Source of the DNA: a virus
Taxonomy: Duplodnaviria > Heunggongvirae > Uroviricota > Caudoviricetes
DNA length: 10,681 nt
Virus record (IMG/VR): IMGVR_UViG_2713896775_000011
Span: 1-10,681 of that record
Strand: one strand, 5' to 3'
Both the position numbers and the translations under genes were made by a program. Under the pieces are notes generated by a model. It saw only the letters and a program-made list of their open reading frames with translations, had not been told where the DNA came from and made no database searches. Below, in pieces: positions 828-10,681 of this stretch; the stretch's first letter is position 1, and every line of letters begins with the position of its first letter.

Positions 828-1303
828 TTAACAGTTAATCCACCAGTATGTGCCGGGTGCCTGCGGGTAAGTGGCGGCGGCAACCTCGTGAACCATCCCC
901 CAATCCAGAGCTGTGGAGGCATTGGCTATGGTGGCGGCGGAGATAACCTCCTTCCACTCATTGCGGCTCTTACTGAGCTCAATCTGACTCTCCAAAATAT
1001 CGACAAAACGCTCCAGGTCATTATTGAGACACGCGCTCCACTCACTGACGCGTGAGTGATCCACGCTTGGGCCCATCAAGCCCCAGTGAAAAGGATGCAG
1101 TAAGAACCGACTCCCAGGATTCGCCTTACGTTCAGACCCTGCAAGAAAAATGATATTAGCGACTGATTCAACATTGCTAAGGTTATGGGTCTTTACTGGG
1201 ATTGGTAGGGCCTTTAGAAAGTGATAAGCAGTAAAACCTGCAACGAGGTCACCGCCCGGACTGGAAATGTAAATGTTTAACTCAGTCGCCCCCTGATTGA
1301 TAG
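828..1303 (-). pseudogene. ClpP-fold (Clp protease-like) serine peptidase, 5'-truncated fragment
   Basis: The minus-strand ORF contains NIYISSPGGDLVAGFTAYHF...VESVANIIFLAGSERKANPGSRFLLHPF...ALDWGMVHEV, which aligns with the ClpP core (YINSPGG...AG...Y...GQAASMGAFLLTAG...SRVMIHQP...EYGLVD), including the Ser and His positions. Only about 25 residues precede the SPGG motif, against roughly 90 in ClpP. The only in-frame start is a GTG at 1358 with no SD, lying inside the invertase remnant. Confidence 0.55.
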
Positions 1304-1543
1304 CTCCGAGAACTGATTGTTGAACGAACAAAAGCTGGCCTGGAAGCTGCTCGCGCACAGGGACGAATTGGTGGACGACGTCCCAAACTTACACCAGAAC
1401 AATGGGCGCAGACGGGTAGGTTAATAGCGGCAGGGGAATCGCGCCGGAGGGTTGCCATAATTTATGATGTTGGGATATCTACGCTTTACAAAAAATTCCC
1501 AGCGACCAGAGATAAGAATTCCGGCACGCATGGCCGGTTATAA
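1304..1543 (+). pseudogene. Serine-recombinase DNA invertase (Pin/Gin/Hin family), C-terminal remnant only; catalytic domain absent
   Basis: Frame 2 from 1304 (directly after TAG 1301-1303) to TAA 1541-1543 reads LRELIVERTKAGLEAARAQGRIGGRRPKLTPEQWAQTGRLIAAGESRRRVAIIYDVGISTLYKKFPATRDKNSGTHGRL. This closely matches the C-terminal hinge and HTH domain of Gin/Pin as I remember them. There is no start codon, and no frame upstream carries the N-terminal catalytic domain. Confidence 0.85.
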
Positions 1544-5054: not shown

Positions 5055-5515
5055 TTAGTGATCTCCACCACTGCGCGCAGCCGCCTGATCACGCCATAAC
5101 AGTATTTCCTGTACCGTCATGGCGTCCATCTCTACCGGCCGCCAGTGGAATATGACGGCGATATCTGCCATCAGGTCTTCTATGCGTTCGCAGGGGCATC
5201 GGATGATTCGTTGCCCGTATCCGTCGCGGTCAGATCCGAAGAGGGTTGCAAAAAATCAACCACCGCGTTGGCTAGCTGGCAAAAATCCCAGGTATCCATA
5301 CGGGCAATCTCATCGGCGGTTAGTGCCGGAGCGGTAACGCGGGGCAGCAGAATAACCAGCGCGTCATAGTTGGAAGTCAGCACGTCATAGGCTTTTAAGC
5401 CGCGCAGTGATCCAGCCTGTTTAAGCACGGAAGTGATCGCCACTTCGGTGATTTTGGTCTTACCGCGCGTAATAGGGGCGGTAAGAATAACGGTGTTTTC
5501 TTTGGTCTTGCTCAT
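5055..5515 (-). CDS. E': gpE+E' fusion product made by programmed -1 ribosomal frameshift (about 152 aa)
   Basis: The slippery heptamer TTTTTTG lies on the minus strand at + coordinates 5249-5255, inside E codons 88-89. The -1 frame from 5249 stays open for 64 codons (ATLFGSDRDGYGQRIIRCPCERIEDLMADIAVIFHWRPVEMDAMTVQEILLWRDQAAARSGGDH) and stops at TAA 5055-5057, directly abutting the T start codon. Confidence 0.7.
5180..5515 (-). CDS. E: Tail assembly chaperone gpE (P2 E-like), 110 aa
   Basis: MSKTKENTVILTAPITRGKTKITEVAIT...LRGL...ALVILLPRVTAPALTADE resembles P2 gpE. AGGAAA SD upstream; stop TAG at 5180-5182. Confidence 0.85.
   Translation of the reverse strand: MSKTKENTVILTAPITRGKTKITEVAITSVLKQAGSLRGLKAYDVLTSNYDALVILLPRVTAPALTADEIARMDTWDFCQLANAVVDFLQPSSDLTATDTGNESSDAPANA
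5249..5255 (-). promoter_or_regulatory. -1 programmed frameshift slippery site (TTTTTTG) for E/E'
   Basis: Heptamer read directly on the minus strand within E; its position near the E 3' end and the open -1 frame match the P2 E/E' and lambda G/GT paradigm. Confidence 0.65.
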
Positions 5516-5529
5516 GGTGCCGGGTTTCC

Positions 5530-6045
5530 TTATAGGCCGATGTTAGCGCGGTGTTTTTCCAGCACATCCACACCGGCAACTTTGTAGATCATGTTGAGCA
5601 CATCAACTTCGATAATCTCTTCGCCGTTGATGGTCAGCTTGTAATAGGTGTTTTTCAGGGTGTACTTATGCGAAGTGTCATCCCCGACTTTTGCCGAACC
5701 GGGATCCAGTTCAGTGAAGCGGCCACGCGTCTGGATTTCGCACGGTACAGCGTCGCCGGTTGCGTCGTCCTGATAGGAGCCAGCAAAACGTGTTTGCATC
5801 CCGTCCGCAGTGGTAACGCCCCATTTTTTCAGCAATCCGGCATCCAGACCGCCAAGCGTGATATCCATATCCAGGGCGCCAGCGTCGAAGCCAAGATCCA
5901 CCGCAACCGAACCCGGCATACCACCCGCCTGGTAGTCTTCGGTTTTTTTTGTGAGTTTGGCGGGGGTGATTTCCGGCACCATGCCGAAGTAGTTATCCCC
6001 GTCAAAGAACATATTGAAATATTTGAGTTTCTTAGGCAGTGCCAT
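5530..6045 (-). CDS. FII: Tail tube protein (P2 gpFII-like), 171 aa
   Basis: MALPKKLKYFNMFFDGDNYFGMVPEITPAKLTKK...RFAGSYQDD...LEKHRANIGL resembles P2 FII, including the ...HR.NIGL C-terminus. It lies 12 nt downstream of FI. Confidence 0.9.
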   Translation of the reverse strand: MALPKKLKYFNMFFDGDNYFGMVPEITPAKLTKKTEDYQAGGMPGSVAVDLGFDAGALDMDITLGGLDAGLLKKWGVTTADGMQTRFAGSYQDDATGDAVPCEIQTRGRFTELDPGSAKVGDDTSHKYTLKNTYYKLTINGEEIIEVDVLNMIYKVAGVDVLEKHRANIGL

Positions 6046-6057
6046 AAGCGCCCCCGG

Positions 6058-7251
6058 TTAGTTATTCACTGCGCTGGAAAACGTAGCGAAATATTCGTCG
6101 GTGAACTCCTGTACCAGGCTGAGATTTTCCAGCGGTGGAACAGGGGTGTAGTTGTACTTAATGGTCAGTTGACCATTGCGCAGGGTTTCCGAGGTATTCG
6201 GTTCCGGGTCATACCAGCAGCGGGCGCCCAGCAGCTTGCCAGCCGTCACATATGAGGTCAGCTTCTTATTGATGCCGTCCACAATGTCCTTAACCAGCGA
6301 CGGGGTAAGCGGTTTATCAACATAGGCGAAATGGGCTTCGGCGACGGTATCCGCAACGATCTGCGCGGTTCGGGTATAGCTTTCGAAGATATACGTTTCC
6401 GCGTCGCAGGTACGCGATCCCCAGATGCGGTAGCCGTCCTGCTTGATCAGCGTGGTAACGCCTGCTGCGTTCAGTTCGTCGGCGTCGGTATCGGTGCCCT
6501 GCAACGTGAAATAGATATCCCGATCCATCCCCAGCACGTTATTAACGGGCACGTTGGAAATGGTTTTATGCCAGCCCTGCGTTGCGTCGATTTTGGCGCG
6601 CATCCCAACAGCATGGGCACCCACGGGCACGGTGGCATTGGCCCCGGCGTTGGTGTCGTAGCAGATGAAATTAGGCCAGATAACCATCATTTCACGCTGG
6701 GAGAACTGTTCGCGGTATTCCTTCACTTCGGCGATTGTGTTGCAGCCGTTCGCAGCCACGTAAGCAAATGCGCGCAGCTTTTCGGCAATGACGCCGAGTT
6801 GTGCGGCTACCGCTTCCGTATCAAGCCCAGGAACAGCCAGTACACGCGGGCGCACGCCTACGCGCATTTCGGCAGACAGCAGCGCGTACATGCCGGTAAA
6901 GCGCCCGTTTGCATCGGTGCCGCCAATAACCAGTTGATCCTGTGTCTGTGCGGTACCGCCTTCTGGTGGAACAATTTTTGACGCATCGGCAACGCGGATC
7001 ACAATGGTTTGCGGGCTGGTCTGGTCTGAAATCGCTTTCAGGGTGGTAAACAGGGTGCCGGTTTTACCTGCCTTGCCCAGCATGTTAGCCACGCGGGTGA
7101 TCAGTACAGGGGTATCCAGCGGGAACGCTGTTTCGTCCGCATCATCAGCGGTGCAGACAACGCCGATCACCGCCGAATCAATGTCGGTGATCATCGTGCT
7201 AAGGTCGGTGGTTTCCGTGACGGTTACACCGTGATGGTAGTTAGTGGCCAT
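6058..7251 (-). CDS. FI: Contractile tail sheath protein (P2 gpFI-like), 397 aa
   Basis: MATNYHHGVTV...VIGVVCTADDAD...VPGLDTEAVAAQL...KLRAFAYVA...WHKT.SNV...YTPVPPLENL matches P2 FI (MSDYHHGVQV...) along its length as recalled. GAGG SD upstream of ATG 7249-7251. Confidence 0.9.
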   Translation of the reverse strand: MATNYHHGVTVTETTDLSTMITDIDSAVIGVVCTADDADETAFPLDTPVLITRVANMLGKAGKTGTLFTTLKAISDQTSPQTIVIRVADASKIVPPEGGTAQTQDQLVIGGTDANGRFTGMYALLSAEMRVGVRPRVLAVPGLDTEAVAAQLGVIAEKLRAFAYVAANGCNTIAEVKEYREQFSQREMMVIWPNFICYDTNAGANATVPVGAHAVGMRAKIDATQGWHKTISNVPVNNVLGMDRDIYFTLQGTDTDADELNAAGVTTLIKQDGYRIWGSRTCDAETYIFESYTRTAQIVADTVAEAHFAYVDKPLTPSLVKDIVDGINKKLTSYVTAGKLLGARCWYDPEPNTSETLRNGQLTIKYNYTPVPPLENLSLVQEFTDEYFATFSSAVNN

Positions 7252-7323
7252 GTATTTGCCTCGCCAGTTTAATGACTGCGAATATCATTGCGGCAATGGC
7301 AGGCCGATGCGATGAATAAGGGT

Positions 7324-7341
7324 TGTCAGCAACCTGCAACA
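7324..7341. promoter_or_regulatory. Ogr-type late-promoter activator site: dyad TGT-N12-ACA
   Basis: tgt(7324-7326)-cagcaacctgca-aca(7339-7341) matches the TGT-N12-ACA element of P2 late promoters. Its centre lies 81 bp from the FI ATG and 76 bp from the D ATG, between the two divergent genes. Confidence 0.4.
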
Positions 7342-7408
7342 ATGACGGGGCGTTGTTCATGCGCGCGCGCGTGGCGACGATGTACCCCATCATGATGAAG
7401 GGGTTGAT

Positions 7409-8527
7409 ATGGACACGACAGAAAACCGATATTCGCCGCGCCCGGCGTTCAGTATTGAAATTGAAGGTAATCAGCTTACGGCGCTGGATAACCGGCTGAT
7501 CTCCCTTTCCCTGACAGATAACCGGGGCTTTGAAGCGGACACGCTGGATCTGACTCTGGATGATGTAGACGGGCAGGTAGCATTACCATCACGCGGCGCA
7601 AAGATATCGGTGGCGCTGGGCTGGGATAATGATCCATTGGTTTTTAAGGGCGTCTATACGGTTGACGAGATCGGACACGCCGGCCCGCCTGACCAGCTAA
7701 CGATCAGTGCCAGAAGTGCAGATTTCCGCGATACCTTCAACGTGAAGAGGGAATATAGCTGGCACGATATTACCGTGGGGGATGTGGTCGCCAGCATTGC
7801 CAGCCGCTACGATCTGCGTGCGGGTGTCAGCGAAGAACTGGCGAAGATTGAGATAGACCACGCCGATCAGACGAGTGAATCAGATATCAGCTTCTTAACG
7901 CGCATGGCCGAAATGCTGGGCGCGGTGGCAACCATTAAAAACGGTATGCTTCTGTTTATCACGCCGGGCAAGGGAGTGACGCAAAGCGGCAAGCCGTTGC
8001 CGGTGATCGAGATCGTCAGGTCAAGCGGTGATAAACATCGGTTTAACGTAGCTGACCGCGACGCGTACACGGGCGTAACTGCATACTGGCTTGATCTCAA
8101 CTTTGGCAAAAAACCATCCACTACCGTGAAGAAAACCACCCGCAGACGACGAACCAGCCAGGCCAAAAAGAAAGAGCCCGCATCAAGCAAAAAAGAGGGT
8201 GATTATCTGGCCGGGGCCGAAGGTAACGTTTTTGTTATCCGTAAAACCTTCAAGACGGAAAAGGCGGCGAAGCGGGCCGCTGCGGCTAAGTGGCGGGAGT
8301 TGCAGCGTGGAGCGGCGACGTTCAGCATCACCCTGGCGCGTGGCCGCGCGGATTTGTACCCGGAACAGCCTGCCAGCGTCTACGGCTTTAAGTCCACGAT
8401 CGACAGTGGGAACTGGACGATAACGCGGTGCGTTCACGATATTGGCGGGGGAGGGTTTACCACATCGCTGGAACTGGAAGTAAAAATCGACGACTGGACA
8501 GCGGAGAGTGACGATTCAACGTCTTAA
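7409..8527 (+). CDS. D: Phage tail/late protein gpD (P2 D-like), 372 aa
   Basis: MDTTENRYSPRPAFSIEIEGNQLTALDNRLISLSLTDNRGFEADTLDLTLDD... is characteristic of the P2 gpD family. AAGGGG SD 5 nt upstream of the ATG. Confidence 0.9.
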   Translation: MDTTENRYSPRPAFSIEIEGNQLTALDNRLISLSLTDNRGFEADTLDLTLDDVDGQVALPSRGAKISVALGWDNDPLVFKGVYTVDEIGHAGPPDQLTISARSADFRDTFNVKREYSWHDITVGDVVASIASRYDLRAGVSEELAKIEIDHADQTSESDISFLTRMAEMLGAVATIKNGMLLFITPGKGVTQSGKPLPVIEIVRSSGDKHRFNVADRDAYTGVTAYWLDLNFGKKPSTTVKKTTRRRRTSQAKKKEPASSKKEGDYLAGAEGNVFVIRKTFKTEKAAKRAAAAKWRELQRGAATFSITLARGRADLYPEQPASVYGFKSTIDSGNWTITRCVHDIGGGGFTTSLELEVKIDDWTAESDDSTS

Positions 8528-8575
8528 GCGTTATACTTGCGTTGATATTAACCAGTCCTGAAAGGAGGCCCGCGT

Positions 8576-8818
8576 ATGGCAATGCGCTGTCCTCGCTGCC
8601 GTGCAATAGCAAAAACCAGAACCAGCGTTGAGCTGAGTTTGCTTGTACGGCGCAGCTATCACCAGTGTCAAAATATGTTGTGCGGGTACTGTTTCACCAG
8701 CATGACGGAAATAGACGGTTCACTAAATCAGACCCAGCCAGCGCCCGGCGCGATGGTGCCACAAGAAGCTTTTCCACGAAGTCACCACGGCGAAGATCAG
8801 TTATCGCTGGCATTATAA
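8576..8818 (+). CDS. ogr: Ogr/Delta-family zinc-finger late-gene transcriptional activator, 80 aa
   Basis: MAMRCPRCRAIAKTRTSVELSLLVRRSYHQCQNMLCGYCF has the Cys-x2-Cys...Cys-x4-Cys Ogr signature and resembles P2 Ogr (MFHCPLC...RYHQCQN.NC). Strong AAAGGAGG SD 7 nt upstream. Confidence 0.85.
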   Translation: MAMRCPRCRAIAKTRTSVELSLLVRRSYHQCQNMLCGYCFTSMTEIDGSLNQTQPAPGAMVPQEAFPRSHHGEDQLSLAL

Positions 8819-8820
8819 AA

Positions 8821-8850
8821 GCGGCCCCTAAATGGGGCCGTTATTTATTT
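8821..8850. terminator. Bidirectional rho-independent terminator shared by ogr (+) and the convergent membrane-protein gene (-)
   Basis: gcggcccc-taaa-tggggccg hairpin followed by TTATTTATTT on the + strand and by CTTTTA on the minus strand. The minus gene's stop codon (8845-8847) lies inside the T-tract. Confidence 0.6.
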
Positions 8851-9492
8851 CATGTTTATGGCTACAAACCTTGATCGTGTAAGGTTTTCACTTAAATATT
8901 GATCGCCACTATCCCCGGCCTTTTTGCCCCAGATATCACACGAAGATTCACCGCCCTGAAAAACGTAGCCTTTGGTTAAAATGTCGTTAGTCACATAAAT
9001 ATGATCGAATAAACCAGCCTTCCAAGCCCTGTTAGATTCCCCGTGATTGAAATAGCTGATGCATACGGACTGAACGGCACTTTTCGCCTGTAGTTCTTCT
9101 ATGCTGTCAAAATTGAATGCAACTACTAAGGCTTTGTTGTAAATGACTGGTTTAACTGTGAGATTCAGATCTCCGAGCGCCTTGGATAAGGCAAGGGGAA
9201 GTTGATTAGTCGCTTCTGAAAAGTCGATAGTGGTTGTTAATTGTTCTTTGGGTTTAGCCGCGGGTTGTGTTTGTTCTGTGTTTGTCACTGCTGGCTGGGG
9301 TTTATTTTCAGCAACAGCTTTCGGCGCGACTGGTGCAACCATTGAACCTATGATTGCTGCCAAGAGGCACACCCCGAAGTAGATAGCAGATGAGCGCTTT
9401 CGATTTGGCATAAAAACCCATTTGGGATTGATTAGCCCAACCCAAAAAGCGATCCCAGCAACAGCGGCGATAACGGTGATGATTGTTTCCAT
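8845..9492 (-). CDS. Hypothetical membrane-anchored protein, 215 aa (two predicted N-terminal TM helices, Pro/Gln-rich linker, globular C-terminal domain)
   Basis: ATG at 9490-9492 with a GGAGGG SD 7 nt upstream. Hydrophobic segments IITVIAAVAGIAFWVGLI and AIYFGVCLLAAIIGSMVAPVA. The DNA looks clearly AT-richer than the flanking tail genes and fieF (by eye). No family recognised. Confidence 0.6.
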   Translation of the reverse strand: METIITVIAAVAGIAFWVGLINPKWVFMPNRKRSSAIYFGVCLLAAIIGSMVAPVAPKAVAENKPQPAVTNTEQTQPAAKPKEQLTTTIDFSEATNQLPLALSKALGDLNLTVKPVIYNKALVVAFNFDSIEELQAKSAVQSVCISYFNHGESNRAWKAGLFDHIYVTNDILTKGYVFQGGESSCDIWGKKAGDSGDQYLSENLTRSRFVAINMK

Positions 9493-9670
9493 TGAGTACC
9501 CTCCGTATTAAGGCGGGTATTATTGTCGATGGTGCTCAAAAACGGAACAGCCAAGCGCGGTGCGCCTGGCTGCTTCTTTGTCGAAGTGTAGTCAAAATGT
9601 AGACGAAGTTTAGAATAAATCCTTTTATTCCATTATGTTACTGGCTGGATTTCTTCACCATCCCTGTCTT

Positions 9671-9698
9671 CCCCCACATGATGTGGGGGTTTTTTTTA
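9671..9698 (+). terminator. Rho-independent terminator (cccccacat-g-atgtggggg followed by T9) with no + strand gene upstream in the window
   Basis: Perfect 9-bp inverted repeat followed by nine T residues on the + strand, about 80 bp upstream of fieF. Confidence 0.5.
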
Positions 9699-9778
9699 TC
9701 CTCAATTTGCCTGCTGCTTAATGCATTGCAGATGATTTGCTTCCGTTATACTAGCGTCAGTTGATAGCGGGAGTATTT

Positions 9779-10681
9779 ATGAATCAATCTTATGGACGGC
9801 TGGTCAGTCGGGCGGCGATTGCTGCGACGGCGATGGCTTCGTTGCTATTGCTGATTAAAATTTTTGCATGGTGGTATACCGGGTCGGTGAGTATTCTCGC
9901 CGCGCTGGTGGATTCGCTGGTGGATATCGGCGCGTCGTTGACGAATTTACTGGTGGTGCGATATTCCCTGCAACCTGCCGACGATAATCACTCGTTTGGT
10001 CACGGTAAAGCAGAGTCCCTCGCGGCGCTGGCGCAAAGTATGTTTATCTCCGGTTCGGCACTATTCCTGTTTTTGACGGGTATTCAACATCTGATATCTC
10101 CAACACCGATGACAGATCCAGGCGTCGGGGTTATCGTGACAATTGTGGCGCTAATTTGTACGATTATCCTTGTCTCGTTTCAGCGTTGGGTGGTGCGGCG
10201 GACGCAAAGCCAGGCGGTGCGGGCTGATATGCTACATTACCAGTCTGATGTTATGATGAACGGCGCAATTCTGCTGGCGCTGGGGTTGTCCTGGTACGGC
10301 TGGCATCGCGCCGATGCTCTGTTTGCATTGGGAATCGGCATCTATATTTTATATAGCGCGTTACGCATGGGATATGAGGCGGTACAGTCATTACTGGATC
10401 GCGCATTGCCTGATGAGGAACGGCAAGAAATTATTGATATCGTGACTTCCTGGCCGGGTGTTAGCGGCGCTCACGATCTTCGCACGCGGCAGTCAGGGCC
10501 GACCCGCTTTATTCAGATTCATTTGGAAATGGAAGACTCTCTGCCTTTGGTTCAGGCACATATGGTGGCGGATCAGGTAGAGCAGGCTATTTTACGGCGT
10601 TTTCCGGGATCGGATGTAATTATCCATCAGGACCCCTGTTCCGTCGTACCCAGGGAGGGTAAACGGTCTATGCTTTCATAA
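9779..10681 (+). CDS. fieF: Cation-diffusion-facilitator ferrous-iron/zinc efflux transporter FieF (YiiP), 300 aa
   Basis: [56 protein letters not shown]... matches E. coli FieF as recalled, including the CDF signature and the HxxxD metal site. True start is ATG 9779 (GGGAG SD 5 nt upstream); the ORF track start at 9761 is a TTG. Confidence 0.95.

What the first reader, a model, noticed from the sequence alone, without database searches (positions are those of the whole stretch)
8845..9492. AT-rich gene for a 215-aa two-helix membrane protein between ogr and the host junction: candidate moron
In P2 the attachment site follows ogr with no intervening gene. Here a convergent gene with a strong RBS sits between ogr and the host gene fieF, and its DNA is visibly AT-richer than the tail genes and fieF. 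The product has two N-terminal TM helices, a Pro/Gln-rich linker and a roughly 130-aa domain I do not recognise. Position next to att, atypical composition and membrane anchoring are typical of prophage accessory genes such as superinfection-exclusion or abortive-infection proteins. This is the most plausible place in the window for an undescribed function, but it is a single gene with no recognisable partner.
Basis: partly seen in the sequence, partly recalled or inferred. Interest (0 to 1): 0.65.

Follow-up and report, generated by a model that had tools for sequence, protein, structure and literature searches.

The report
Prophage accessory gene for a periplasm-facing membrane protein
This is a real, rare accessory gene carried by a P2-like prophage next to its attachment site; it encodes an inner-membrane protein that displays an uncharacterised phage-specific domain in the periplasm, most likely to block infection by other phages, but that function is untested.

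Summary
ORF 8845-9492 (-) encodes 215 aa and is the lowest-GC stretch of the window (44.3% against 54.5%, z -4.1). Two alleles give dN/dS 0.11.

It is phage cargo, not a host gene. It is absent from K-12 and found in 5 of 5426 complete E. coli genomes, always between ogr and attR. It is also on an excised 32.3-kb circular copy of the phage.

The ogr-attP slot is hypervariable. The 42 lysogens at this site carry at least six states: empty, or one of five envelope-protein cargoes.

The protein is a chimera:
- Residues 1-76 are the two-helix anchor of phrog_3403. Its archetype, phage 186 Orf97, is annotated "expression from plasmid blocks 186 infection".
- Residues ~97-215 are a phrog_3807 domain. 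Elsewhere this is a free-standing secreted 125-148-aa protein with two conserved Cys.
- Every free-standing copy whose context I examined lies beside attP in Peduoviridae, either cI-X-int or D/ogr-X-att.

Best reading is a lysogen-protecting, periplasm-level superinfection-exclusion protein. This is inferred, not shown. I file it as a new variant of a known kind, of moderate interest.

The parts
8845..9492 (-). Accessory gene for a 215-aa chimeric inner-membrane protein (the stop codon is 8845-8847).
   Evidence: ORF. dN/dS 0.11. Annotated 'hypothetical protein' WP_016246766.1 in RefSeq. Pfam, NCBIfam and PADLOC give no significant match; the best Pfam hit is E 0.14, below its cut-off.
9322..9492 (-). 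N-terminal anchor module (aa 1-57): TM1 at about aa 3-21, a cytoplasmic K/R-rich loop at aa 22-34, and TM2 at about aa 35-57. It is homologous to the N-terminus of phrog_3403 (phage 186 Orf97 family).
   Evidence: phrog_3403 matches residues 1-76 at E 2.6e-18. Hydropathy and charge. Alignment with Orf97 and the 237/240-aa proteins shows an invariant loop motif. DNA is 89-92% identical to the 237/240-aa alleles from 9376/9377 up to 9800, i.e. codons 1-38 plus the upstream region.
9205..9321 (-). Pro/Gln/Thr/Ala-rich linker (aa 58-96), low complexity, predicted disordered.
   Evidence: Sequence. pLDDT below 50 in the full-length model. Variable in length and sequence among homologues.
8848..9204 (-). 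C-terminal periplasmic alpha/beta domain of the phrog_3807 family (aa 97-215), with two conserved cysteines (C144, C185).
   Evidence: phrog_3807 matches at E 6.6e-7 for this domain, and all 15 aligned relatives match (best 1.4e-26). The profile search finds free-standing secreted relatives. AF2 pLDDT 84.3, pTM 0.79. No PDB fold match.
9499..9504 (-). Shine-Dalgarno GGAGGG, 6 nt before the ATG.
   Evidence: Read from the sequence. Conserved in the alignment of four alleles. It can pair with the upstream CCCGCC.
8820..8842 (.). Bidirectional hairpin terminator shared by ogr (+) and the accessory gene (-).
   Evidence: Terminator scan on both strands. Free energy -19.8 (+) and -16.5 (-) kcal/mol, z -4.4 and -3.7.
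9546..9574 (-). Strong conserved hairpin followed by a T-run, 53 nt upstream of the ATG, at the boundary between the cargo cassette and the attP arm. It is a probable terminator or insulator for the C-int transcript of the circular phage.
   Evidence: 13 pairs. Free energy -25.3 kcal/mol, z -4.9. Compensatory changes in allele L006. A hairpin precedes TTTTTGTCGAAGTG in the empty, lipoprotein and Zn-ribbon/VasI variants. It is positionally equivalent to the P2 ogr terminator that abuts the Int P arm.
8820..9573 (.). Variable cargo cassette of the ogr-attP slot (754 bp here; 42 bp in 'empty' prophages).
   Evidence: blastn against empty, lipoprotein, Zn-ribbon+VasI-like and 237/240-aa variants. 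Sequences at the junctions.
9574..9655 (.). Conserved phage arm of attR (the attP arm), present in all cargo variants.
   Evidence: 98% identical in empty and other variants. 42 of 5426 genomes carry this arm joined to the fieF side.
9656..9700 (.). 45-bp att core. It is identical to the host sequence, lies in the 3' part of the sRNA gene cpxQ, and is repeated at attL.
   Evidence: K-12 homology starts at 9656, and cpxQ coordinates are. A 45-bp 100% repeat lies at the int/cpxP end of the KMi029 prophage. Sequence comparison.
8576..8818 (+). ogr (late-gene activator), the conserved left flank of the slot.
   Evidence: ORF. Annotated as an Ogr/Delta zinc-finger protein.

Best explanation
SHOWN. 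The gene is cargo of a P2-like (Peduoviridae) prophage integrated into the 3' end of cpxQ, upstream of fieF. It occupies a hypervariable slot between ogr and attP. Homologous recombination between the conserved flanks (the ogr end on one side; the attP arm, hairpin and first ~38 codons on the other) exchanges cassettes in this slot.

The product is a chimera. It has the two-helix membrane anchor of the phage 186 Orf97 family (phrog_3403), a disordered Pro/Gln linker, and a phrog_3807 domain. In other Peduoviridae that domain is made as a soluble protein with a Sec signal peptide.

INFERRED, topology. The N-terminus and the C-terminal domain face the periplasm and the K/R loop faces the cytoplasm. 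The two conserved cysteines probably form a disulfide.

INFERRED, function. The protein is made for the benefit of the lysogen and acts in the periplasm or at the outer face of the inner membrane as a superinfection-exclusion factor. The non-enzymatic binding domain would intercept a component of an incoming phage's DNA-delivery machinery, or the host factor that machinery uses. Adsorption would occur but genome entry would fail. Tethering by the Orf97-type anchor would hold the domain at the inner membrane, where ejection takes place.
For: Phage cargo:
- Absent from K-12.
- Present in 5 of 5426 genomes, only at this position.
- Present on the excised circular phage in the order C, int, attP, gene, all on one strand (prophage map).
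- Lowest GC in the window.

Variable slot: among 42 lysogens at this site the states are empty 3, lipoprotein phrog_2320 10, Zn-ribbon TM protein plus VasI-like protein 3, 237-aa phrog_3403 7, 240-aa at least 3, and this gene 5. All the cargoes are envelope proteins.

Chimera.

Periplasmic domain:
- Relatives carry typical cleavable signal peptides that end just before the domain.
- Two Cys are conserved, one invariant and one in at least 90% of sequences.
- The positive-inside rule fits this orientation.

Lysogen expression in relatives: free-standing phrog_3807 genes lie 10 bp (43 bp in L016) after the CI repressor gene and 12-50 bp before int or a small ORF preceding it, in 186-like prophages. 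Others lie at D/ogr-att.

Exclusion precedent:
- The phage 186 record annotates Orf97, the archetype of phrog_3403 (E 2.1e-139), as 'expression from plasmid blocks 186 infection'.
- Vibrio Peduoviridae phage K139 carries, between cI and int, the unrelated small protein Glo, annotated 'periplasmic protein; involved in phage exclusion'.

No conserved catalytic-type residues: the (near-)invariant columns are P, L, C, N and C.
Against: - No experiment exists on this protein or on any phrog_3807 member. Every database name is 'hypothetical protein'.
- The homology to Orf97 covers only the anchor, not the Orf97 C-terminal domain, which may carry the exclusion activity.
- Glo is not homologous: hhalign probability 8.5% and a different PHROG.
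- No sigma-70-like promoter was found on the gene's strand. A strong hairpin with a T-run lies 53 nt upstream, so expression in the integrated state is not established.
- The fold matches nothing known, so the structure gives no functional hint.
- The full-length model is poor (pLDDT 48).
Confidence: 0.45

Rival explanations
1. It is a lysogenic-conversion or immunity factor unrelated to phage. The periplasmic domain would bind and neutralise a periplasm-acting toxin or enzyme, such as a T6SS effector, bacteriocin or lysozyme. Alternatively it would alter envelope physiology and so raise the fitness of the lysogen.
For: - The protein is small, non-enzymatic and periplasmic, probably with a disulfide. 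That is the typical format of periplasmic immunity or inhibitor proteins.
- Another cargo of the same slot is a VasI/TagO-like protein (PF11319, E 2.8e-13).
- All cargoes of the slot are envelope proteins.
- From general knowledge, att-adjacent conversion genes are known in P2-like phages, for example ctx of phiCTX.
Against: - No cognate toxin gene lies nearby.
- The family was found only in or beside Peduoviridae lysogeny/att modules in every context examined, not in T6SS or bacteriocin loci.
- There is no fold similarity to Ivy, MliC, PliC or known immunity proteins.
- The only functional note on a homologous part (Orf97) concerns phage infection.
Confidence: 0.22
2. The protein serves the phage's own life cycle. 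It might modulate lysis timing, protect the induced cell, prevent progeny from injecting into already infected or lysed cells, or aid establishment just after infection, when it can be read from the C-int transcript across attP.
For: - In the circular genome the gene is co-directional with and downstream of C and int.
- No promoter of its own was recognised.
- Phage 186 orf97 lies in the SOS-induced p95 operon with tum, so it is expressed at induction.
Against: - The slot is empty in 3 otherwise similar prophages and holds unrelated cargo in others, so the gene is dispensable.
- A strong hairpin with a T-run separates it from attP and int.
- Relatives sit directly behind the CI repressor gene, which points to expression in the lysogen.
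Confidence: 0.15
3. It is an abortive-infection or membrane-disrupting effector. The two-helix membrane module would depolarise the cell when infection is sensed.
For: Single membrane proteins can act as Abi effectors (general knowledge). The anchor loop is unusually conserved.
Against: - No sensor partner is present, there is no PADLOC match, and no toxin-like domain.
- The variable, specificity-bearing part is periplasmic, and in most relatives it is a soluble secreted protein with no membrane module at all. That is hard to reconcile with intracellular sensing.
Confidence: 0.06
4. It is not a functional gene: either a chance ORF or a decaying remnant of recombination.
For: It is rare, a chimera, and has no recognisable promoter.
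Against: - dN/dS 0.11 and a strong SD.
- Full-length homologues 54-58% identical in Citrobacter and Enterobacter, the Citrobacter freundii one at the same position.
- A confident AF2 domain model.
- Conserved Cys and motifs across a family down to 17-39% identity.
Confidence: 0.02

Closest known systems
Phage 186 Orf97 (archetype of PHROG phrog_3403), in the SOS operon p95-tum-orf97
   Same: - The N-terminal two-helix anchor is homologous, with an invariant cytoplasmic loop motif (P..V.MP.RK.SS..Y...C).
- Both are non-essential cargo of Peduoviridae.
- Full-length Orf97-type proteins (237 and 240 aa) occupy the very same ogr-attP slot in sister prophages and share 89-92% identical DNA over the promoter-proximal region and the first 38 codons.
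- The 186 record says that expression from a plasmid blocks 186 infection.
   Different: - The ~150-aa C-terminal domain of Orf97 (SYKHV...TTF[RK]G.N.YG..VK.T motifs) is absent and replaced by a phrog_3807 domain.
- In 186 the gene lies at the other end of the genome, between A and cos, under LexA control.
PHROG phrog_3807: uncharacterised small secreted proteins of Peduoviridae (for example Burkholderia phage KS14 gp9, Klebsiella phage ST437-OXA245phi4.1 gp02, a Serratia phage KSP20 fragment)
   Same: - The domain is homologous, with the same two conserved Cys and motifs.
- The predicted fold is the same (BFVD hit to KSP20, E 1e-6, TM 0.72).
- The neighbourhood is the same, beside attP, either D/ogr-X-att or cI-X-int.
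   Different: - The known members examined here are free-standing proteins of 125-148 aa with a cleavable signal peptide. Here the signal peptide is replaced by a two-helix anchor and a 40-aa linker, so the domain is tethered to the inner membrane.
- Only about 8 such fused proteins exist among 5.8 billion clusters.
Vibrio cholerae phage K139 Glo
   Same: - It is also from Peduoviridae.
- It is a small (137 aa) signal-peptide protein.
- It is encoded between cI/orf2 and int, next to attP.
- It is annotated 'periplasmic protein; involved in phage exclusion'.
- It has the same format, compartment and genomic logic as the free-standing phrog_3807 genes.
   Different: It is not homologous: hhalign probability 8.5%, phrog_7270, and its sequence looks largely helical (my reading, not a prediction). 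It is an analogue, not a relative.
Classical envelope-level superinfection-exclusion proteins (P1 Sim, T4 Imm and Sp, HK97 gp15, P22 SieA); from general knowledge
   Same: They are prophage- or phage-encoded, periplasmic or inner-membrane proteins, encoded by single genes, and they act after adsorption to prevent DNA entry.
   Different: No sequence or fold similarity was detected (Pfam; PDB). The target and phenotype of the present protein are unknown.
P2 moron loci (old/tin between A and Q; Z/fun; orf30) and the defence hotspots of P2-like phages
   Same: It is AT-rich, non-essential cargo at a recombination-prone slot of a P2-like phage (PMC6823313; PMC13586616). [quoted passage not shown]
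   Different: The slot is different (ogr-attP), and phage P2 itself has no gene there. The cargoes seen here are envelope proteins rather than the cytoplasmic nucleases and NTPases typical of the A-Q hotspot. None is in PADLOC.

Membership tests
phrog_3403 / phage 186 Orf97 family | N-terminal two-helix membrane anchor with a conserved K/R-rich loop | tested here: met
   hmmscan E 2.6e-18 over residues 1-76. Invariant loop residues in the alignment with Orf97. Hydropathy.
phrog_3403 / phage 186 Orf97 family | Orf97-type C-terminal domain (profile positions ~76-243; SYKHV / TTF[RK]G.N.YG motifs) | tested here: not met
   The profile match stops at position 75 of 243. The alignments show an unrelated C-terminus. 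The full-length members L006, L007 and Orf97 match positions 1-243.
phrog_3403 / phage 186 Orf97 family | Blocks phage infection when expressed | not testable with these tools
The primary paper (Brumby et al. 1996, cited in PMC5322425) is not in the library.
phrog_3807 (secreted Peduoviridae proteins, function unknown) | Significant match to the family profile over the whole domain | tested here: met
   E 1.8e-6 for the full protein (residues 98-203) and 6.6e-7 for the domain alone, with all 15 aligned relatives matching. The reciprocal profile search retrieves members at 1e-25 to 1e-27.
phrog_3807 (secreted Peduoviridae proteins, function unknown) | Two conserved cysteines and the P...L / SVC / N..QG[YF] / C[DE]..GK motifs | tested here: met
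   Alignment A3: P15, L38 and C60 invariant; N85 and C101 in at least 90% of sequences. These Cys correspond to C144 and C185 of the full protein.
phrog_3807 (secreted Peduoviridae proteins, function unknown) | Cleavable Sec signal peptide directly preceding the domain (free-standing protein of about 125-148 aa) | tested here: not met
   Relatives have an n-region, an h-region and an AxA-type end just before the (I/V)P motif. The window protein instead has two TM helices and a 40-aa linker.
phrog_3807 (secreted Peduoviridae proteins, function unknown) | Encoded beside attP of a P2/186-like phage, co-directional with cI/int | tested here: met
   Window, KMi029 and the circular phage. Relatives.
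K139 Glo-type periplasmic exclusion protein | Sequence or profile homology to Glo | tested here: not met
   hhalign probability 8.5%. Glo belongs to phrog_7270.
K139 Glo-type periplasmic exclusion protein | Periplasmic location and exclusion of superinfecting phage | not testable with these tools
   Periplasmic location is inferred from the topology and from the signal peptides of relatives. Exclusion needs plating and DNA-entry assays.
Known anti-phage defence systems (PADLOC-DB v2) | Match to any defence-system protein model | tested here: not met
   No family at E up to 1 for this protein, and none for the other cargoes of the slot or for Orf97.
Prophage moron (accessory gene not needed for the phage cycle) | Part of the mobile phage genome, dispensable (present or absent among close relatives), with atypical composition and its own terminator | tested here: met
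   Excised circular phage carries it. Empty and alternative-cargo prophages exist. GC z -4.07. Terminator. An own promoter was not found.

The most novel reading that the evidence does not exclude
phrog_3807 would be a new fold family of periplasmic phage-exclusion proteins, carried in the lysogeny/att module of Peduoviridae across Enterobacterales and Burkholderia. The window gene would be a natural 're-engineering' of it: the domain grafted onto the Orf97 anchor. The anchor's invariant cytoplasmic loop would dock to a host inner-membrane factor used for genome entry. The ogr-attP slot would then be a previously unexploited reservoir of envelope-level, non-cytoplasmic anti-phage proteins, a class that current defence catalogues miss.
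Probability: 0.3. Interest if true: 0.6.

Novelty: new variant of a known kind. Interest (0 to 1): 0.42.

Why it matters
Defence-system catalogues such as PADLOC and DefenseFinder are built around cytoplasmic systems. Envelope-level exclusion proteins are short, fast-evolving and largely unannotated.

This work points to three things:
- A compact, testable candidate: one gene of 648 bp.
- A whole uncharacterised family (phrog_3807) that sits in the lysogenic operon or beside attP of P2/186-like phages in several genera.
- A hypervariable slot (ogr-attP) whose cargoes are all envelope proteins.

If the family is confirmed as exclusion factors, three consequences follow:
- It would add a new fold to the short list of proteins known to block phage genome entry.
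- It would help explain strain-level differences in phage susceptibility, which matters for phage therapy against E. coli, Klebsiella and Citrobacter.
- It would give a natural example of domain shuffling between two accessory-protein families.

If the family is not an exclusion factor, this remains an ordinary prophage moron of unknown function.

Tried and rejected
1. Pfam, NCBIfam and PADLOC scans of the protein gave nothing significant. Pfam on 15 family members gave only noise.
2. The full-length AF2 model was poor (pLDDT 48). Only the domain model is usable.
3. Fold searches:
   - Foldseek against PDB had a best E of 0.39.
   - BFVD returned only family members.
   - afdb50 was not available.
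   - A profile search against PDB sequences gave nothing.
4. K139 Glo as a homologue was recalled from memory, tested and rejected. I keep it as an analogue only.
5. A core host gene is rejected.
6. Promoter search: the consensus scan found no site on the gene's strand, and my manual reading found only a -10-like AATAAT with no acceptable -35. This is left open. No P2 late-promoter TGT-N12-ACA element was seen by eye upstream.
7. An Rfam scan of 8500-9900 gave only sub-threshold hits over the cpxQ terminator.
8. The search for related loci with the diverse alignment failed because no stretch was conserved enough. I replaced it with single-protein scans and exact-protein look-ups.
9. Literature: nothing on orf97 beyond citations of Brumby et al. 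1996. The Christie & Calendar review is not held.
Full report
**1. The observation**

A GGAGGG Shine-Dalgarno lies 6 nt upstream (sequence).

The gene converges on ogr (8576-8818). The two share a bidirectional hairpin terminator at 8820-8842, with free energies of -19.8 and -16.5 kcal/mol. fieF begins at 9779.

The compositional shift is real:
- The gene is 44.3% GC and its C-terminal part 41.7%. The phage DNA to its left is 54.5% and fieF 52.2%.
- GC3 is 0.43 against 0.62 for gene D.
- It is the lowest-GC 648-bp stretch in the window, z = -4.07.

Hydropathy shows two hydrophobic segments at about 3-21 and 35-57. A 14-residue loop with four K/R separates them. A Pro/Gln/Thr/Ala-rich linker and a C-terminal domain follow.

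The gene is under purifying selection. dN/dS is 0.11 against a 92.7-95.5%-identical allele, from 28 synonymous and 12 non-synonymous changes.

In P2 itself the ogr terminator abuts the Int P arm and attP, with no gene between.

**2. Phage cargo, not a host gene**

K-12 has cpxP-cpxQ-fieF with nothing in between. Homology of the window to K-12 starts only at 9656, inside the 3' half of the sRNA gene cpxQ. The 45 bp at 9656-9700 are repeated exactly at the other prophage end, next to int and cpxP, in strain KMi029. They are therefore the att core.

The unique part of the gene occurs in 5 of 5426 complete E. coli genomes, even at blastn 'distant' sensitivity. It is always between ogr and fieF.

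One of the records is a 32,330-bp circular 'plasmid', which is the excised phage. Its order is C repressor, int, attP, this gene, all on one strand and convergent with ogr. The gene therefore travels with the phage.

A Citrobacter freundii homologue, 58% identical, sits at the same ogr-fieF position.

**3. A hypervariable slot**

Forty-two genomes carry this phage arm joined to the fieF side. Comparison of near-identical prophages shows that everything between the ogr stop (8818) and a conserved arm beginning at 9574 is exchangeable. The states found are:

| State of the slot | Genomes |
|---|---|
| Empty (42 bp, just a terminator) | 3 |
| 127-aa lipoprotein, phrog_2320 | 10 |
| Zinc-ribbon membrane protein plus VasI/TagO-like protein (PF11319) | 3 |
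| 237-aa protein | 7 |
| 240-aa protein | at least 3 |
| The 215-aa gene | 5 |

About 11 lysogens were not classified. In one strain an IS4 has landed between ogr and the gene.

Every cargo is an envelope protein, and none matches PADLOC.

In the variants checked (empty, lipoprotein, Zn-ribbon/VasI and the reverse-oriented alleles) the cassette ends with a GC-rich hairpin just before the conserved TTTTTGTCGAAGTG of the arm.

**4. The protein is a chimera of two phage families**

PHROGs gives two non-overlapping hits. Residues 1-76 match the first 75 positions of phrog_3403 (E 2.6e-18). Residues 98-203 match phrog_3807 (E 1.8e-6).

The 237- and 240-aa proteins of sister prophages are full-length phrog_3403 (E 6e-98 and 4e-110). 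So is phage 186 Orf97, the family archetype (E 2.1e-139).

The window shares 89-92% identical DNA with those alleles from the attP arm through the hairpin, the SD and the first ~38 codons. Similarity then stops.

The alignment shows an anchor whose cytoplasmic loop is invariant from Orf97 to this protein, although overall identity is 23%. It is followed by unrelated C-termini.

Cassette exchange by homologous recombination, using the ogr end and the arm/5'-coding region as flanks, explains both the slot's variability and the chimera.

**5. The C-terminal domain**

Full-length relatives are very rare. There are eight in a 5.8-billion-cluster database, from E. coli, Citrobacter and Enterobacter.

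An exhaustive HMMER search of 1.84 billion representatives with a profile of the domain found only 15 hits. Apart from two long repetitive proteins, which I discount as spurious (a 7018-aa protein and a 672-aa coiled-coil-like one), the window protein's own cluster and a 91-aa fragment, they are free-standing proteins of 127-145 aa. Further family members found elsewhere extend the range to 125-148 aa. Their typical Sec signal peptides end just before the domain's (I/V)P motif.

Two cysteines are conserved: C60 is invariant and C101 is present in at least 90% of sequences. These are C144 and C185 of the full protein. No catalytic-looking residues are conserved. All 15 aligned sequences match phrog_3807 (best 1.4e-26). 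Every database name is 'hypothetical protein'.

With this alignment AlphaFold2 gives a confident alpha/beta model, pLDDT 84.3 and pTM 0.79. The full-length model was poor.

The fold matches nothing solved:
- Foldseek against PDB has a best E of 0.39.
- A profile search against PDB sequences finds nothing.
- BFVD returns only family members, such as the Serratia P2-like phage KSP20 and a Klebsiella prophage.
- afdb50 was unavailable.

**6. Where the family lives**

Every context I could inspect is in Peduoviridae and beside attP.

Convergent with, or just after, D/ogr at the prophage end:
- Klebsiella prophages ST437-OXA245phi4.1, ST13-OXA48phi12.1 and ST15-OXA48phi14.1.
- Burkholderia KS14 gp9.
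- Two IMG/VR contigs.

Embedded in the lysogenic operon of 186-like prophages. Here the gene starts 10 bp (43 bp in L016) after the CI repressor gene and ends 12-50 bp before int or a small ORF preceding it:
- Atlantibacter, Citrobacter and metagenomic contigs.

In the circular map of the window's phage the gene is likewise co-directional with C and int, just across attP.

**7. How it most likely works**

Shown: mobile, dispensable cargo; a chimera of a membrane anchor and a secreted-type domain.

Inferred, topology: N-terminus out and C-terminus out. The basis is the positive-inside rule, the signal peptides on relatives and the conserved Cys pair. The domain is therefore tethered in the periplasm at the inner membrane.

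Inferred, function: superinfection exclusion at the genome-entry step. Four observations support this:
- The only functional note on a homologous part is the phage 186 record: orf97 'expression from plasmid blocks 186 infection'.
- Peduoviridae phage K139 carries at the cI-int position a small periplasmic protein, Glo, 'involved in phage exclusion'. I tested Glo for homology and it is not related (hhalign 8.5%, phrog_7270). It is an analogue in format, compartment and position.
- Relatives sit directly behind the immunity repressor, so they are expressed in lysogens.
- The domain looks like a binder, not an enzyme.

I give this reading about 0.45. The rivals are:
- A periplasmic immunity or conversion factor unrelated to phage (0.22).
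- A role in the phage's own cycle or establishment (0.15).
- Abi (0.06).
- Not a functional gene (0.02).

**8. Open points**

- No sigma-70-type promoter was found on the gene's strand.
- A strong, conserved hairpin with a T-run lies only 53 nt upstream of the ATG. It spans 9574-9546, has a free energy of -25.3 kcal/mol (z -4.9), and shows compensatory changes in another allele. In the circular phage it could terminate the C-int transcript.
- How the gene is transcribed once integration has separated it from Pc is unknown.
- The SD can pair with an upstream C-rich stretch, and the pairing is kept in a diverged allele.
- The disulfide could not be verified on the model.

**9. Comparison with what is known, and novelty**

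P2's classical moron regions are tin/old (A-Q), Z/fun and orf30 (PMC6823313).

Systematic surveys place defence hotspots at gpA-gpQ, int-att, int-primase and within the tail genes (PMC13586616; PMC9122126).

[quoted passage not shown] That region includes this slot, so the position is not new.

The gene, its chimeric architecture and the phrog_3807 family are uncharacterised.

I file it as a new variant of a known kind: a prophage-encoded envelope accessory or exclusion protein. It is not a full member of the Orf97 family, because the C-terminal domain fails the test. It is an atypical, membrane-tethered member of phrog_3807.

**10. Verdict**

The function is plausible but unproven, and the interest is moderate (0.42). 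The main value is a cheap, well-defined experiment on a family that recurs in the lysogeny module of P2/186-like phages.

Noticed in passing
window 828-1358 (- strand): A stand-alone 176-aa ClpP-like serine protease (phmmer against PDB: 9uxt 'Clp protease' E 9.6e-31; ClpP1 about 1e-8). It lies between a tail-fibre-assembly-like ORF (234-668) and gpU (1650-2099), which is the Z/fun-equivalent variable slot. The otherwise 99%-identical prophage of strain KMi029 has a DNA invertase and alternative tail-fibre genes there instead. It is another cargo gene of unknown role.
   Followed up: partly
window 9656-9700: The 45-bp att core lies inside the 3' half, including the terminator, of the Cpx-regulated sRNA gene cpxQ (K-12 b4716). 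The prophage is therefore inserted within cpxP/cpxQ's 3' end. The attR copy differs from K-12 by one base in the terminator loop (ATGATG against ATGCTG). Whether CpxQ made from attL is unchanged was not examined.
   Followed up: partly
window 9546-9574 and 9493-9545 (- strand): A strong conserved hairpin with a T-run lies 53 nt upstream of the gene's ATG, with compensatory substitutions in allele L006. A second small hairpin can sequester the GGAGGG Shine-Dalgarno, and its pairing partner co-varies (CCCGCC here, CCCTC in L006). These may be transcriptional or translational control elements.
   Followed up: partly
window 9391-9429 (codons 22-34 of the gene): The cytoplasmic loop of the anchor (P23, V26, M28-P29, R31-K32, S34-S35; also Y38 and C42 in TM2) is invariant between this protein, the 237/240-aa proteins and phage 186 Orf97, although overall identity is 23%. 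That is more conservation than a passive membrane anchor needs.
   Followed up: no
L020 (NZ_JBQJRQ010000002.1, 32,330 bp circular): The assembly of E. coli strain 2020N21-246-1 contains the whole phage as a separate circular replicon labelled 'plasmid unnamed3', in addition to the integrated copy. This suggests the prophage excises spontaneously and is probably active.
   Followed up: partly
L002 4659-5987 (strain GPT21-003_1): An IS4 element is inserted between ogr and the 215-aa gene in one lysogen. It separates the gene from the shared terminator.
   Followed up: no
L005 1921-2897 (E. coli O19:H7 730V1), same slot: An alternative cargo of the slot is a two-gene cassette: a zinc-ribbon membrane protein (phrog_6586) and a VasI/TagO-like periplasmic protein (PF11319, E 2.8e-13; RefSeq calls it 'T6SS-associated protein TagO'). 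A T6SS-accessory-like protein as P2-like prophage cargo is unexplained.
   Followed up: partly
L019 23298-24938 (KMi029 prophage, outside the window): The classical A-Q (tin/old) hotspot of the same prophage carries an ImmA/IrrE-family metallopeptidase gene and a 212-aa hypothetical gene. This is a candidate defence or regulatory pair. It was not examined.
   Followed up: no
window 5180-7251 (-) versus 7409-8527 (+): In this phage the tail sheath, tube, E and T-U genes are on the opposite strand to D-ogr. They are divergent from a 157-bp intergenic region at 7252-7408, unlike a single co-directional block.
   Followed up: no
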